12,094 nt of DNA, taken from IMG/VR virus record IMGVR_UViG_2657245634_000013, positions 1 through 12,094 of that record. The stretch is one strand, 5' to 3'. The DNA comes from a virus. Its lineage: Duplodnaviria; Heunggongvirae; Uroviricota; Caudoviricetes. The notes beneath the pieces are model-generated. The model saw nothing but the letters and a program-made list of their open reading frames with translations, ran no database searches and was not told where the DNA came from. The position numbers and the translations under genes were made by a program. Within the stretch, counting starts at the first letter, position 1. Every line of letters begins with the position of its first letter. Shown piece after piece: positions 8,795 through 12,063 of the stretch.

Positions 8795-9013
8795 ATGTTT
8801 CATTGTCCTTTATGCCAGCATGCCGCACATGCGCGTACAAGCCGCTATATCACTGACACGACAAAAGAGCGTTATCATCAGTGCCAGAACGTGAATTGCA
8901 GTGCCACGTTCATCACTTATGAGTCGGTACAGCGATACATCGTGAAGCCGGGAGAAGTCCACGCCGTAAGGCCGCACCCGTTGCCGTCAGGGCAGCAAAT
9001 TATGTGGATGTGA
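8795..9013 (+). CDS. ogr: Late gene transcriptional activator Ogr (zinc-finger)
   Basis: 72-aa product MFHCPLCQHAAHARTSRYITDTTKERYHQCQNVNCSATFITYESVQRYIVKPGEVHAVRPHPLPSGQQIMWM with the Cys-X2-Cys...Cys-X4-Cys zinc-binding motif. The ORF-track start at 8732 is an in-frame upstream extension; the ATG at 8795 gives the canonical 72-aa Ogr. Confidence 0.95.
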   Translation: MFHCPLCQHAAHARTSRYITDTTKERYHQCQNVNCSATFITYESVQRYIVKPGEVHAVRPHPLPSGQQIMWM

Positions 9014-9023
9014 TCACAAAAAT

Positions 9024-9050
9024 AGCCCCTCAGTTGAGGGGCTTTATTTA
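9024..9050 (+). terminator. Rho-independent terminator downstream of ogr
   Basis: Stem AGCCCCTC / GAGGGGCT with loop AGTT, followed by TTTATTTA, starting 11 bp after the ogr stop. Confidence 0.7.
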
Positions 9051-9056
9051 TGGTCG

Positions 9057-9075
9057 ATGTGGACGTTATGTGGAC
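9057..9075 (+). repeat. Tandem direct repeat ATGTGGAC-gtt-ATGTGGAC (11-bp spacing); candidate integrase arm-type binding sites in the prophage att arm
   Basis: Exact 8-bp repeat at 9057-9064 and 9068-9075, in non-coding DNA between the last phage gene and host sequence. Confidence 0.45.
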
Positions 9076-9081
9076 AGTGGT

Positions 9082-9103
9082 TGATATAAATCCATTTATA
9101 TCA
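9082..9103. repeat. Perfect 10-bp inverted repeat TGATATAAAT-cc-ATTTATATCA in the att region
   Basis: Exact palindrome read directly from the sequence; AT-rich; lies between the direct repeats and the host-like terminator. Confidence 0.6.
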
Positions 9104-9111
9104 TCAGGTTA

Positions 9112-9168
9112 GGTGCTTTTTTGTGACACCATCCCTGTCTTCCCCCACATGATGTGGGGGTTTTTTTT
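9112..9168 (+). ncRNA. Possible CpxQ-like sRNA remnant (3' UTR of cpxP); 5' boundary uncertain
   Basis: Terminator hairpin plus upstream GACACCATCCCTGTCTTCCCCC, recalled as the conserved part of CpxQ; no cpxP coding sequence is visible upstream, consistent with the prophage junction lying at the cpxP 3' end. This is from memory and unverified. Confidence 0.35.
9142..9168 (+). terminator. Rho-independent terminator, probably the host cpxP terminator (3' end of the CpxQ sRNA region)
   Basis: Stem CCCCCACAT / ATGTGGGGG followed by eight T residues. The preceding GACACCATCCCTGTCTTCCCCC matches my recollection of the cpxP 3' UTR / CpxQ, and fieF lies directly downstream as in the E. coli cpxP-fieF arrangement. 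Confidence 0.6.
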
Positions 9169-9249
9169 ATCCTCAATTTGCCTGCTGCTTAATGCATTGC
9201 AGATGATTTGCTTCCGTTATACTAGCGTCAGTTGATAGCGGGAGTATTT

Positions 9250-9867
9250 ATGAATCAATCTTATGGACGGCTGGTCAGTCGGGCGGCGATTGCTGCGACG
9301 GCGATGGCTTCGTTGCTATTGCTGATTAAAATTTTTGCATGGTGGTATACCGGGTCGGTGAGTATTCTCGCCGCGCTGGTGGATTCGCTGGTGGATATCG
9401 GCGCGTCGTTGACGAATTTACTGGTGGTGCGATATTCCCTGCAACCTGCCGACGATAATCACTCGTTTGGTCACGGTAAAGCAGAGTCCCTCGCGGCGCT
9501 GGCGCAAAGTATGTTTATCTCCGGTTCGGCACTATTCCTGTTTTTGACGGGTATTCAACATCTGATATCTCCAACACCGATGACAGATCCAGGCGTCGGG
9601 GTTATCGTGACAATTGTGGCGCTAATTTGTACGATTATCCTTGTCTCGTTTCAGCGTTGGGTGGTGCGCCGGACGCAAAGCCAGGCGGTGCGGGCTGATA
9701 TGCTACATTACCAGTCTGATGTTATGATGAACGGCGCAATTCTGCTGGCGCTGGGGTTGTCCTGGTACGGCTGGCATCGCGCCGATGCTCTGTTTGCATT
9801 GGGAATCGGCATCTATATTTTATATAGCGCGTTACGCATGGGATATGAGGCGGTACAGTCATTACTG
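9250..9867 (+). pseudogene. fieF: Cation-diffusion-facilitator ferrous iron/zinc efflux protein FieF (YiiP), 3'-truncated after about codon 206
   Basis: [86 protein letters not shown]... matches FieF up to ...[10 protein letters not shown]; GGAG RBS at 9242-9245. After about 9867 the frame continues only as antisense read-through of the autotransporter gene, and the cytoplasmic C-terminal domain (expected DRALPDEERQ...) is absent. Confidence 0.85.
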
Positions 9868-12063
9868 GCTGTGACCATTCATATCCAGTTCAGTCTCTGC
9901 CGCCAGACGCAGTTCATGGGTATTACCCAACACGTTATCGTTATTCAACAAAAGCGTCCCACTGCGCAGATCGGTAACACCGGTATAGTCGTTGTCTTTG
10001 TTAGAAAGCGATACGGTCTGACCCTTCTGGCTGCTGAATGCCAGGTCACCACTGCCGGTAATCTTTGCGCTGAGATCGGCGGCATTCTCGCTTTTACCGT
10101 TAGAGCTCAGCACCAGAGCATCGCTGTCGGTAGCGTGTAAATCAAGCTGGGTCAGGCCGTAACCGATATACAGACCGTCATTGTTTACCCCACTCGTCAG
10201 ACGATAGTCGTAAGTGCCGACGGCCGCTTTTTGCCCATTCTGCTGAATATCACGTTGGGCACTGCTGGAGAGGATTTGCCCATTTTTATCCTGCAATTGC
10301 AGATTGCCCGCATCGCCCAGAACTTCCGCACCTTGCGCATCAACCAACTTAATGGTGCTGTTACCATCATCGACTTCAGTGAGCGATAACGCAGAGTCAA
10401 TATCACGAGATACTGAGCTTACAACGTCACTGTCAGAAACCTGAATCACACCCTCGCCGCGCAAATCCAGCGTTTTACTAACGTTGACCGTCCCTTCTGT
10501 CATCTGTGCACCTGCTGTCAGGGCACCAAAATCAACGGTTCCGCCGGAGAATCCCAAAGTGCTAATGGAGTGAGCGCCCTTACCCACTATTACCTGGCTT
10601 CCCTGACCCGCAGTGATCCCGCCTCTCTGCAGAAACTCAGCATTCTTTTCCAGGTTAAATGTCGTGTTCTGGAACGCCAGTGAACCCTGGAACCAGTCTG
10701 TATAAGCAAACTCATCGAAGGAGAATTCGTGATTCCCCATGTTTATTTCAACAATACCTCTACCTTGAAGATCGTTATCAAATACCCAATCTTTATTGGC
10801 ATTGATTTGCAGTTTGCCATCAACATCCAGGTCCGCACGGCCGATGTTCTTGTCTTCAGAAATAACCGCGACAGCACCAGAAGCGACATCAATATATCCG
10901 CTGAATGCATAGTTATTGCCGGTCAGTGCCACTGTCCCACTGTCGATACTTATTGTACCATTGCCGGAAATCTTATTGGCAAAGGTCATGCTATCGTCAG
11001 CCTTCAGGTGTAATTTCCCGCGGTTGTTGATCTCTGCTGTACCTATATTTTGGGTGATCCCTAAAGCGCCATTTTGCTCAATTTTGACTTTACCACTAAA
11101 GGCAGAGTTATCACCGGTTAAGTAAGTCGTGCCATTGAGCGCATTGATATAGCCCAGGCCCTCGCTGCCACTGACAATATCCGCGGAAATAGTCGCGTTT
11201 TTATCCGTGTGGTTTAAGGTGATTTTCTTATCGGATGTCTTTGCCCACACAAACTCAATTTTTTCGGCATCAATAATCCCTGCAGCCTTCGCAGCACTTC
11301 CTTCCTGTGCACCTAACGCTAACTCAGAGTTGGTGCTTAAACTAATTTTCGGTGCGGATATTTTACCTCCATCTGATACGACTAATGTTGTATCAGAACG
11401 TTGGTCGTAATAACCCAGGCTAATATGTTCACGAGCATTAACTTCACCGCCGTTATTAACTGACAGGTACTGATTACCACCGTAACTGCCGTAAACGCCC
11501 ATAAAGAAGGTTTTAGAATTTACCTGGCTGCCTTCACCACTGACATTTCCCTGCAAATAGGTCAGACGGCTGGTGCCCTTAACATGGATTTTGCCGCCGT
11601 TGGAGACATTAAAATAGCCGCGATCGTGTCTCATGCCTGAGTTTGACTCATACAAATCATCAGCATATAACTCGCTGCCAGCATTGGAGACATTCAGGAA
11701 CCCCGTACCTTTCAGCAAAAAGTTAAGTGGGCCATTGATAGTTACCTTTCCTCCGGTAATATCCAACCCACCACCAGAAGCGAGAGTCAGACGCGGACGG
11801 GAAGTATCTGTCGCATTGATTACCAGATTGGCATTGTCAGTCACCGTAATACGGTAATCGATGCTCTGGTTCTCTTTGCCAAAATCAATAGTTTTATCCT
11901 GGTTTACGATGACATCATCGGCGAATACCAGAGATGAATATAAACTTATCGCGCTAATTAAAACAGCCCGGGACTTTTTTCCTTTTACTCTGCTCCCCAG
12001 CTCCGAGCAGACGCTCCAACAGTTACGGGACCTGTTCCACTTTAGCCGATATATTTTATTCAT
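9862..12063 (-). pseudogene. Autotransporter adhesin (type Va), signal peptide plus beta-helical passenger domain, 3'-truncated (no beta-barrel translocator)
   Basis: N-terminus MNKIYRLKWNRSRNCWSVCSELGSRVKGKKS... is an extended signal peptide region (ESPR) typical of autotransporters, followed by a Gly/Asn/Ser/Thr-rich repetitive passenger (GNxxxSG-type beta-helix repeats). The ORF ends ...ELDMNGHSQ with its stop codon supplied by fieF-derived sequence at 9862-9864. Lower GC than the flanking sequence. The likely start is the ATG at 12061-12063, not the track start at 12087. Confidence 0.75.

What the first reader, a model, noticed from the sequence alone, without database searches (positions are those of the whole stretch)
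9082..9103. Perfect 22-bp palindrome TGATATAAATccATTTATATCA at the prophage-host boundary
A perfect 10-bp inverted repeat with a 2-bp spacer is unlikely by chance in about 200 bp of intergenic DNA. It could be a dimeric protein-binding site (Cox/IHF-type accessory factor or a host regulator of the fieF promoter), part of the att core, or an RNA stem.
Basis: seen in the sequence. Interest (0 to 1): 0.35.

Follow-up and report, generated by a model that had tools for sequence, protein, structure and literature searches.

The report
IHF bending site in prophage attR
The 22-bp palindrome is real, but it is an ordinary, already characterised kind of element: the site where the host DNA-bending protein IHF most likely binds in the attachment-site arm of a WPhi/P2-family prophage inserted between cpxP and fieF.

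Summary
TGATATAAATccATTTATATCA lies at 9082-9103 and is the only perfect inverted repeat with arms of 10 bp or more in the window (0.0018 expected in the 237-bp spacer).

It is phage DNA, not host DNA and not att core:
- It is identical in the attP of phage WPhi.
- It is absent from unoccupied cpxP-fieF loci and from attL.
- It ends 21 bp before the 47-bp attP/attB identity (9125-9171).

It lies between the two Int arm-type repeats (TGTGGAC, 9058-9076) and the core. In the annotated P2 genome this is where the IHF-bound segment lies.

The right arm carries the WATCA of an IHF consensus match, TATCATCAGGTTA (9099-9111). The left arm lies where lambda H' has its A-tract. Across 119 distinct P2-type P arms, TCA-N6-T-R is kept in 113 while the bases between are almost free.

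Best reading (about 0.8): this is the IHF bending module of the attR P arm, needed for Int to bridge arm and core during integration and excision.

One extra, unexplained feature: the dyad symmetry is kept through double substitutions at about five pair positions. This could be a functional hairpin, or templated quasipalindrome mutation.

Already known in kind; low interest.

The parts
8795..9013 (+). ogr (late-gene activator), the last gene of the prophage
   Evidence: Annotated as ogrK in the 100%-identical record NZ_CP077477.1 (L003 19806-20024 equals window 8795-9013). It is 100% identical to P2/WPhi Ogr by tblastn.
9024..9051 (.). ogr terminator hairpin (AGCCCCTCagttGAGGGGCT plus a T-run); terminator-like on both strands
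   Evidence: One search finds it on the + and the - strand. The homologous P2 hairpin is annotated 'rho-independent terminator for ogr transcript and F operon'.
9058..9076 (+). two direct Int arm-type sites (TGTGGACg and TGTGGACa, 11 bp start to start) of the P arm
   Evidence: One search reports the direct repeat ATGTGGAC at 9057-9064 and 9068-9075. The P2-type arm consensus tgTGGaCa is given in PMC3448106. The homologous P2 segment is annotated 'protein_bind Int, P arm'. The same 19-mer recurs in direct orientation in the P' arm of WPhi attP.
9082..9103 (.). the 22-bp perfect palindrome (the finding). The left arm is an A/T-rich element and the right arm contains the WATCA of the IHF consensus. 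The dyad centre CC|A is the predicted upstream IHF kink.
   Evidence: for the sequence. It aligns with GAAATAAAtcctTTTATTTC inside the IHF-bound segment of P2. The kink position is inferred from the lambda H'-IHF structure, recalled from memory.
9099..9111 (+). IHF consensus match TATCATCAGGTTA (12 of 13 positions of WATCAANNNNTTR)
   Evidence: The corresponding positions are conserved in 113 of 119 distinct homologous arms, while the five bases between are nearly free (67 different pentamers).
9085..9118 (.). segment equivalent to the IHF-bound region annotated in P2 (projected by ungapped homology)
   Evidence: P2 record 24324-24357 corresponds to dyad positions 3-36. In the window, dyad position 1 is base 9083.
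9125..9171 (+). 47-bp att core: the identity between phage attP and bacterial attB. It equals the 3' part of the cpxP 3' UTR (CpxQ sRNA region) with its terminator.
   Evidence: Overlap of the phage matches (up to 9171) and the unoccupied-locus matches (from 9125). Direct reading of WPhi attP, attL and MG1655 attB. Terminator 9142-9160.
9250..10152 (+). fieF, the first host gene after attR
   Evidence: Annotation of NZ_CP077477.1.

Best explanation
The palindrome is the IHF-binding (DNA-bending) module of the P arm of the attachment site of a WPhi-type, P2-family prophage. In the lysogen this arm forms attR (P-O-B').

The layout is: ogr, a bidirectional terminator, two Int arm-type sites (TGTGGAC twice), a 6-bp spacer, the palindrome, an 8-bp remainder of the IHF consensus, and then the 47-bp core that the phage shares with the cpxP 3' UTR.

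The host heterodimer IHF binds about 35 bp centred near 9098. The right arm of the palindrome supplies the WATCA of the consensus TATCATCAGGTTA. The left arm supplies the A/T-rich element about one helical turn upstream, as in lambda H'. The two proline-induced kinks are predicted at CC|A (the dyad centre) and at TC|A (the end of the right arm).

The resulting U-turn lets an Int protomer hold an arm site with its N-terminal domain while its C-terminal domains hold the core. This is needed to build the integrative intasome on attP and, together with Cox bound on the attL side, the excisive complex on attR.

Shown here: the location on phage DNA, homology with the annotated P2 IHF segment, and conservation of the consensus. 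Inferred: IHF binding to this particular sequence, the kink positions, and the requirement for recombination.

The symmetry is best seen as a by-product. Two A/T-rich IHF determinants happen to be mirror images, and templated (quasipalindrome) mutation may keep them so.
For: (1) It is phage-borne. WPhi attP carries the identical 22-mer. Unoccupied cpxP-fieF loci and attL lack it. The 50-mer around it is in 664 of 5426 E. coli genomes, at one place in nearly all.

(2) Position. The RefSeq P2 record annotates Int P arm 24293-24320, IHF 24324-24357, core 24356-24383, Cox 24399-24472 and Int P' arm 24470-24496. The P2 counterpart of the palindrome (GAAATAAAtcctTTTATTTC, record 24322-24341) lies in the IHF segment. 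The window has the same order and the same spacing from the arm repeats.

(3) Consensus. TATCATCAGGTTA is at 9099-9111.

(4) Comparative signature over 119 distinct P2-type P arms from several genera. Information is 1.0-2.0 bit across the dyad through TCA. It is 0.25-0.58 bit at the next five bases (67 different pentamers). It is 1.13, 1.93 and 1.14 bit at TTR, and about 0.1 bit beyond. TCA-N6-T-R is kept in 113 of 119.

(5) The same P arm is joined to at least three unrelated cores, with the sequence diverging right after ...TTTCA, yet TTR is restored at the same distance each time.

(6) A recurrent T-to-A change at dyad position 12 (38 of 119 arms, on at least three backgrounds) creates a CpA step at the predicted kink. 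It would close a 2-nt loop, which no hairpin can form. It therefore fits a duplex-DNA reading better than a stem-loop reading.
Against: No binding data for this sequence could be obtained or read; the primary P2 and WPhi att papers are not in the held library. A consensus match alone is weak: there are 5 matches to WATCAN5TTR in the window against 1.5 expected. IHF recognition is asymmetric and mostly indirect. It does not by itself predict near-invariance of all 20 bp, or the paired substitutions that keep the two arms complementary (5 of 10 pairs with double changes, 0 of 500 shuffles).
Confidence: 0.8

Rival explanations
1. The dyad is selected as a nucleic-acid stem-loop that overlaps the IHF site. 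One version is a hairpin in the int-sense (minus-strand) transcript. In circular phage DNA that transcript runs from int through the core into the P arm, up to the bidirectional ogr terminator. After integration it is physically uncoupled from int. This would be a lambda-sib-like, position-dependent control of Int synthesis. The other version is a small cruciform extruded at the IHF kink.
For: Double substitutions keep complementarity at pairs 3/18 (A:T to T:A; the WPhi type, L143, L180), 4/17 (A:T to G:C; L107), 5/16 (T:A to C:G; L094, L095, L204, L405), 6/15 (A:T to T:A; L123, L168, L320) and 2/19 (L194). Formally, 84.1% of cells are paired against 79.6% in shuffles, 5 pairs have double changes against 1.2, and the covariation score is 0.111 against 0.037, each reached by 0 of 500 shuffles. 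Divergent arms with indels still keep a bulged dyad (L139, L152). Of the one-sided transitions, 8 types give A-C on the plus strand, which is G-U on the minus strand; 2 give G-T, both at the innermost pair. The ogr terminator also reads as a terminator on the minus strand.
Against: The stem is weak: RNA -5.9 to -7.1 kcal/mol and DNA about -5 kcal/mol, with z-scores of -2.2 to -3.6. For P2 on the minus strand it is only -4.3 kcal/mol (z = -1.3). No Rfam family reaches its threshold. One-armed variants are common in apparently intact prophages (TGAcATAAAT in 8 loci). The slid controls at -3 and +3 give covariation of 0.099 and 0.084 in this A/T-rich repeat. The innermost pair of the perfect 10-bp arms cannot form across a 2-nt loop. 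The 8-to-2 wobble bias is not significant (about p = 0.05, one-sided). There is no transcript evidence. In the prophage state of this window the element is not linked to int at all.
Confidence: 0.12
2. The symmetry has no function of its own. It is maintained by mutation: intrastrand template switching at a quasipalindrome during replication copies a change in one arm into the other (the Ripley/Lovett mechanism). IHF selection keeps both arms A/T-rich.
For: The recurrent 'perfecting' changes include one (T12 to A, 38 of 119 arms, on at least three backgrounds) that cannot add hairpin stability, but is exactly what copying across the loop would produce. The WPhi type is extended both inward (pair 9/12) and outward (pair 0/21). 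One-sided intermediates coexist with the double changes (L112 and L390 beside L094 and L095).
Against: It was not tested directly. Template switching is documented mainly for longer stems (from memory). It does not explain why the palindrome arose. It is compatible with the best explanation rather than an alternative to it.
Confidence: 0.35
3. It is the operator of a symmetric homodimer other than IHF: an unknown phage or host regulator acting at the prophage end.
For: It is a perfect dyad, and the whole 20 bp is nearly invariant across genera.
Against: A fixed protein would not tolerate paired base changes at five different positions. No promoter-like site lies next to it. The P2 annotation lists only Int, IHF and Cox as att-binding proteins. 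The motif occurs nowhere else in E. coli genomes.
Confidence: 0.04
4. It is a host element (a fieF or cpxP regulatory site), or part of the att core, or a chance repeat.
For: Only its location in the cpxP-fieF spacer.
Against: It is absent from all unoccupied loci sampled, which match only from 9125 onward. It is absent from attL and present in free phage genomes. The chance expectation is 0.0018.
Confidence: 0.01

Closest known systems
IHF site of the bacteriophage P2 attP P arm (annotated in NC_001895 at 24324-24357; original footprints by Yu and Haggard-Ljungquist, J Bacteriol 1993, cited from memory and via the reference list read)
   Same: It has the same position between the tandem TGTGGAC arm sites and the core, and the same 7-nt distance from the second GTGGAC. 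The 20-bp dyad is homologous: GAAATAAAtcctTTTATTTC in P2 against GATATAAAtccaTTTATATC here. The TCA-N6-T-R frame is the same.
   Different: There is one paired substitution (A3:T18 to T:A), which improves the WATCA match. The palindrome is extended to 10-bp arms. The downstream spacer and the core are different. IHF binding to the WPhi-type sequence could not be verified here.
Phage WPhi attP (AJ245959 / AY135739)
   Same: The 22-mer is identical and 8990-9171 is 99.5% identical. The 47-bp core is the same. PMC3448106 states that the WPhi and L-413C cores are identical.
   Different: The window holds the integrated form (attR). The int-proximal arm of this prophage, read from attL in strain 15A, differs from that of WPhi.
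Lambda H' site (IHF consensus plus an upstream A-tract)
   Same: The consensus lies in the 3' half. An A/T-rich tract lies 9-14 bp upstream of W, which corresponds to the left arm here. The site sits between arm-type Int sites and the core. This comparison rests on my knowledge of the 1IHF complex.
   Different: H' is not a palindrome and lies in the P' arm. Lambda uses three IHF sites, whereas P2-type phages have one annotated.
Lambda sib retroregulator (relevant only to the minority reading)
   Same: It is a stem-loop placed beyond att from int, and so linked to int only in non-integrated DNA.
   Different: sib is a long RNase III substrate with an experimentally shown effect. Here the stem has 8-9 A-U-rich pairs, and no RNA evidence exists.

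Membership tests
IHF binding site (WATCAANNNNTTR class, H'-like) | Match to the 13-bp consensus | tested here: met
   TATCATCAGGTTA at 9099-9111 matches 12 of 13 positions. On its own this is weak, with 5 matches in the window against 1.5 expected.
IHF binding site (WATCAANNNNTTR class, H'-like) | Consensus positions conserved in homologues while the N positions drift | tested here: met
   Among 119 distinct P arms, C20 is kept in 98%, A21 in 97% and T28 in 99%, and position 29 is a purine (R) in 97%. The five bases between carry 0.25-0.58 bit, with 67 different pentamers.
IHF binding site (WATCAANNNNTTR class, H'-like) | A/T-rich element about one helical turn upstream of WATCAA | tested here: met
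   The left arm ATATAAAT (9084-9091) lies 8-15 bp upstream of W (9099). The H' comparison is from memory.
IHF binding site (WATCAANNNNTTR class, H'-like) | Homologous to an experimentally protected IHF segment | tested here: met
   The P2 record has protein_bind IHF at 24324-24357, which covers dyad positions 3-36.
IHF binding site (WATCAANNNNTTR class, H'-like) | Direct binding and bending by IHF; dependence of recombination on himA/hip | not testable with these tools
   This needs EMSA or footprinting and genetics.
P arm of a P2-type (heterobivalent tyrosine integrase) attachment site | Tandem arm-type repeats tgTGGaCa, repeated in the other arm | tested here: met
   Repeats at 9058-9076. 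The P' copy is present in WPhi attP and in attL. The consensus is from PMC3448106.
P arm of a P2-type (heterobivalent tyrosine integrase) attachment site | Core identical between attP, attL, attR and attB; int at the other prophage end | tested here: met
   The 47-bp identity is at 9125-9171. A phage integrase lies next to cpxP in strain 15A.
att core / crossover region | Sequence shared by attP and attB | tested here: not met
   The palindrome is absent from attB (L006) and from attL (L005).
Cox/Xis-type recombination directionality factor site | Several direct repeats about 10-11 bp apart, on the int-proximal side in P2 | tested here: not met
   This is a single inverted repeat on the ogr-proximal side. 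P2 Cox is annotated at 24399-24472, beyond the core. The cox-box is TTAAAG/CNCA in six or more copies (PMC3936717). In WPhi, TAAGAAAAC occurs twice on the P' side.
Intrinsic terminator | G+C-rich stem followed by a T-run | tested here: not met
   The terminator scan does not report it; only 9024-9043 and 9142-9160 are found. All pairs but one are A-T.
Described RNA family (Rfam 15) | Score at or above the gathering threshold | tested here: not met
   The best overlapping hits score 24-32 bits against thresholds of 47-56.

The most novel reading that the evidence does not exclude
The dyad symmetry of the P-arm element is itself under selection. In this reading an 8-10-bp stem-loop overlaps the IHF site of P2-type attachment sites and is kept by compensatory changes across Escherichia, Kosakonia, Serratia, Buttiauxella and others. 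It would act as a structured nucleic acid. The most attractive version is a hairpin in the 3' region of the int transcript that exists only while the phage DNA is circular. That would give P2-like phages a sib-like, integration-state-dependent control of integrase.
Probability: 0.12. Interest if true: 0.45.

Novelty: already known. Interest (0 to 1): 0.17.

Why it matters
For annotation, it fixes the right end of a very common E. coli prophage (present in about 11-12% of complete genomes). The phage arm ends at 9124 and the shared core is 9125-9171. It also shows that the palindrome should not be read as a host regulatory site for fieF.

For biology, it adds little beyond the known P2 and lambda paradigm of IHF-assisted intasome assembly.

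The one point a specialist might pursue is the strict conservation and pairwise covariation of a 20-bp dyad around an otherwise asymmetric IHF site. That could reflect a second layer of function, or it could be a natural example of quasipalindrome-templated mutation.

Tried and rejected
- Host element or fieF operator: rejected by comparing unoccupied loci, attL and free phage.
- Part of the core: rejected (same calls).
- Terminator or promoter: the scan finds neither at the palindrome.
- Known RNA family: nothing reaches a gathering score.
- A second IHF site in the opposite orientation, using the left arm. On the minus strand TATCAACCACTGT has WATCAA but not TTR, and the P2 counterpart TTTCTGGTCACGT fits poorly. 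I checked this by eye and found it inconsistent across the family.
- Fis, CRP, ArgR and Ogr-box type dyads: considered by eye only. Their spacings do not fit. Not tested with tools.
- Strand of a putative RNA stem, judged from the wobble bias of one-sided changes: 8 against 2, suggestive but not significant.
- A 9-nt inverted repeat TCACAAAAA/TTTTTGTGA (9014-9022 and 9118-9126) that brackets the whole P arm. It is not conserved in other WPhi-type arms, so I treat it as chance.
- Reading the primary att papers (PMC113030, PMC236345, PMC193207, PMC206961): not held. Statements about their content are therefore from memory, or rest on the P2 GenBank annotation.
- The first Ogr-based locus search in IMG/VR returned only 100%-identical Ogr and many truncated contigs. 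Diversity came instead from pattern scans on the Int arm repeats.

Full report
**Observation.** The sequence TGATATAAAT-CC-ATTTATATCA is at 9082-9103, exactly as described.
- It is the only perfect inverted repeat with arms of at least 10 bp and a spacer of at most 6 bp in the 12-kb window.
- Dinucleotide-preserving shuffles give 0.096 such repeats per window and 0.00175 per 237-bp ogr-fieF spacer.
- It is therefore real and not a chance feature.

**Whose DNA it is.** A 271-bp query around it (8990-9260) splits cleanly.
- P2-family phage genomes, including WPhi at 99.5% identity, match 8990-9171.
- All 5426 complete E. coli genomes match. The 599 that cover the whole query are lysogens with ogr next to fieF. 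The others sampled match only from 9125 onward.
- Direct reading of WPhi attP (L001), attL of the 100%-identical strain 15A (L005) and the unoccupied MG1655 locus (L006) confirms a 47-bp identity. This is GACACCATCCCTGTCTTCCCCCACATG(A/C)TGTGGGGGTTTTTTTTATC, at window 9125-9171.
- The palindrome is present in attP and attR and absent from attB and attL.
- The 50-mer around it occurs in 664 of 5426 genomes, at one place in nearly all (at most two), and never on a plasmid.
- It is therefore phage DNA that ends 21 bp before the core. It is neither a host regulatory site nor part of the core.

**Context.** Downstream of ogr (8795-9013) the order is:
- a terminator hairpin at 9024-9043 that scores as a terminator on both strands;
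- two direct repeats, TGTGGACg and TGTGGACa (9058-9076), which fit the P2-type Int arm consensus tgTGGaCa (PMC3448106);
- the palindrome;
- the core, which contains the cpxP terminator (9142-9160);
- fieF (9250 onward).

The RefSeq record of P2 annotates the same stretch as terminator, Int P arm (24293-24320), IHF (24324-24357), core (24356-24383), Cox (24399-24472) and Int P' arm (24470-24496). At the position of the palindrome P2 has GAAATAAAtcctTTTATTTC, which lies within the IHF-bound segment. In both phages the dyad starts 8 nt after the second GTGGAC. Projected onto the window, the P2 IHF segment corresponds to 9085-9118.

**IHF signature.**
- TATCATCAGGTTA (9099-9111) matches WATCAANNNNTTR at 12 of 13 positions. 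A relaxed pattern has 5 matches in the window against 1.5 expected, so the match alone proves little.
- The comparative evidence is much stronger. I collected P2-type P arms by scanning IMG/VR, metagenomes and species-representative genomes for Ogr or for the Int arm repeats. I then read the 44 nt that follow the repeats.
- Information content over 119 distinct arms:

| Region | Information (bit) |
|---|---|
| 6 nt before the dyad | 0.1-0.9 |
| dyad through TCA | 1.0-2.0 |
| next five bases (67 different pentamers) | 0.25-0.58 |
| TTR | 1.13, 1.93, 1.14 |
| beyond TTR | about 0.1 |

- TCA-N6-T-R is kept in 113 of 119 arms.
- Identical P arms are joined to at least three unrelated cores. The sequences diverge right after ...TTTCA, yet TTR reappears at the same distance each time.
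- From the lambda H'-IHF complex (recalled from memory), W is 9099. The A-tract equivalent is then 9085-9090, which lies in the left arm. The two kinks fall at 9093|9094 (the dyad centre, CC|A) and at 9102|9103 (TC|A).
- The palindrome is thus made of the two A/T-rich determinants of one H'-like IHF site.

**Mechanism.** Shown: the element is the phage P-arm segment homologous to the IHF-bound segment of P2, with a conserved IHF consensus. Inferred: IHF binds here and makes a U-turn between the arm sites and the core. Int can then bridge arm and core, in attP for integration and in attR (with Cox on the attL side) for excision. Cox is not the ligand here. Its P2 segment lies beyond the core. 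Cox-boxes are multiple direct repeats (PMC3936717). In WPhi the only candidates (TAAGAAAAC twice) lie on the P' side.

**The unexplained extra.** IHF recognition is asymmetric, yet the symmetry of the dyad is maintained. I number the P2 dyad G1...C20, with position i paired to position 21-i.
- Paired substitutions occur at 3/18 (A:T to T:A; the WPhi type of this window, and L143 and L180).
- They also occur at 4/17 (to G:C; L107), 5/16 (to C:G; Kosakonia L094, LSJC7 L095, L204, L405), 6/15 (to T:A; L123, L168, L320) and 2/19 (L194).
- Arms with indels keep a bulged dyad (L139, L152).
- On 92 distinct sequences, 84.1% of cells pair against 79.6% in shuffles. Five of 10 pairs show double changes against 1.2. 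The covariation score is 0.111 against 0.037. Each observed value is reached by 0 of 500 shuffles.
- The slid controls pair 34-56% of cells. The -3 and +3 slides still reach covariation of 0.099 and 0.084 in this repetitive A/T-rich sequence.

**Against a functional hairpin.**
- The stem is weak: -4.3 to -7.1 kcal/mol as RNA and about -5 kcal/mol as DNA.
- No Rfam family fits.
- One-armed variants are frequent (for example TGAcATAAAT in 8 loci).
- The recurrent T12-to-A change makes the WPhi arms 10 bp long (38 of 119 arms, on at least three backgrounds). It would close a 2-nt loop that cannot form in a hairpin.
- That change does create a CpA step at the predicted IHF kink. It is also what template switching at a quasipalindrome would produce.
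- One-sided transitions mostly give G-U on the minus (int-sense) strand, 8 types against 2. This is only suggestive.
- I therefore keep a structured-RNA or structured-DNA role as a minority reading (about 0.12). I regard templated mutation acting on a doubly constrained IHF site as the more economical account of the covariation.

**Comparison and novelty.** The element is identical to the corresponding part of WPhi attP and homologous to the annotated P2 IHF site. Its architecture follows the lambda H' paradigm. The integration site and the shared WPhi/L-413C core are described in the literature (PMC3448106). I could not read the primary footprinting papers, so IHF binding to the WPhi-type sequence itself remains an inference. 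Verdict: a correct observation of an ordinary and essentially known component of a phage attachment site. Interest is low. There is a modest open question about why the dyad symmetry is conserved.

Noticed in passing
window 9125-9171 (core); L006 1478-1547; L005 attL: The 47-bp att core is the 3' two-thirds of the cpxP 3' UTR. This is the region of the roughly 60-nt Hfq-dependent sRNA CpxQ, which spans almost the whole cpxP 3' UTR (PMC9438474), and it includes the terminator. Integration rebuilds an intact cpxP/CpxQ 3' end at attL. It leaves a second, 5'-truncated CpxQ-like copy with its terminator in attR, preceded by phage sequence. Free phage DNA carries the same CpxQ-like segment downstream of ogr. 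Whether it is ever transcribed was not examined.
   Followed up: partly
window 9152 (loop of the terminator hairpin 9142-9160): There is an A/C polymorphism in the hairpin loop inside the core. The window, attL of strain 15A and WPhi have A, while MG1655 has C. Some attR copies in IMG/VR have C (for example L018 and L069). This could help to place the crossover point.
   Followed up: no
window 9024-9051: The ogr terminator scores as an intrinsic terminator on both strands. In circular phage DNA it could therefore also end int-sense transcripts that cross attP.
   Followed up: no
L015, L026/L087, L108, L111, L100, L172 and others: P2-type P arms that are identical up to ...TTTATTTCA are joined to many different cores. 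Most of these cores look like host terminator hairpins followed by a T-run (for example AAAGCTCCTGAGGGAGCCTTTTT, GGCCGCGCAAGCGGCCTTTTT, AAGGCACAAAAATGTGCCTTTT). The mosaic junction lies inside the IHF site, between TCA and TTR.
   Followed up: partly
L093, L094 (Kosakonia), L114, L145, L173, L189, L192: Prophages with the P2-type version of the dyad (GAAAYAAAtcctTTTRTTTC), not the WPhi-type version, also use a cpxP 3' UTR-type core (...CACCATCCCTGTCTT...). In L094 the terminator centre lies at the same distance from the dyad (position 69) as in the window. The same target is thus combined with different P-arm variants.
   Followed up: partly
window 9014-9022 and 9118-9126: A perfect 9-nt inverted repeat, TCACAAAAA / TTTTTGTGA, brackets the entire P arm from the ogr stop codon to the edge of the core. 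It is not conserved in other WPhi-type arms (for example ...GTTTTCTGACACC in L230), so it is probably chance.
   Followed up: partly
L005 5988-6175 against L001 300-415: The int-proximal (P') arm of this prophage, read from attL of the identical strain 15A, differs from WPhi between the core and the P' Int repeats. The WPhi direct repeats TAAGAAAAC are not present. This suggests a different Cox specificity combined with the same P arm and core.
   Followed up: no
L007, L030/L037/L088, L093, L096: In some relatives the ogr terminator is followed not by the P arm but by other DNA. L007 and L093 have a small ORF beginning ATGGAAAAAGT(T/A)ATAAT(T/A)GAGCTTGAT. L088 has an insert, with a WPhi-type P arm further downstream. 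This is a cargo insertion point between ogr and attP.
   Followed up: no
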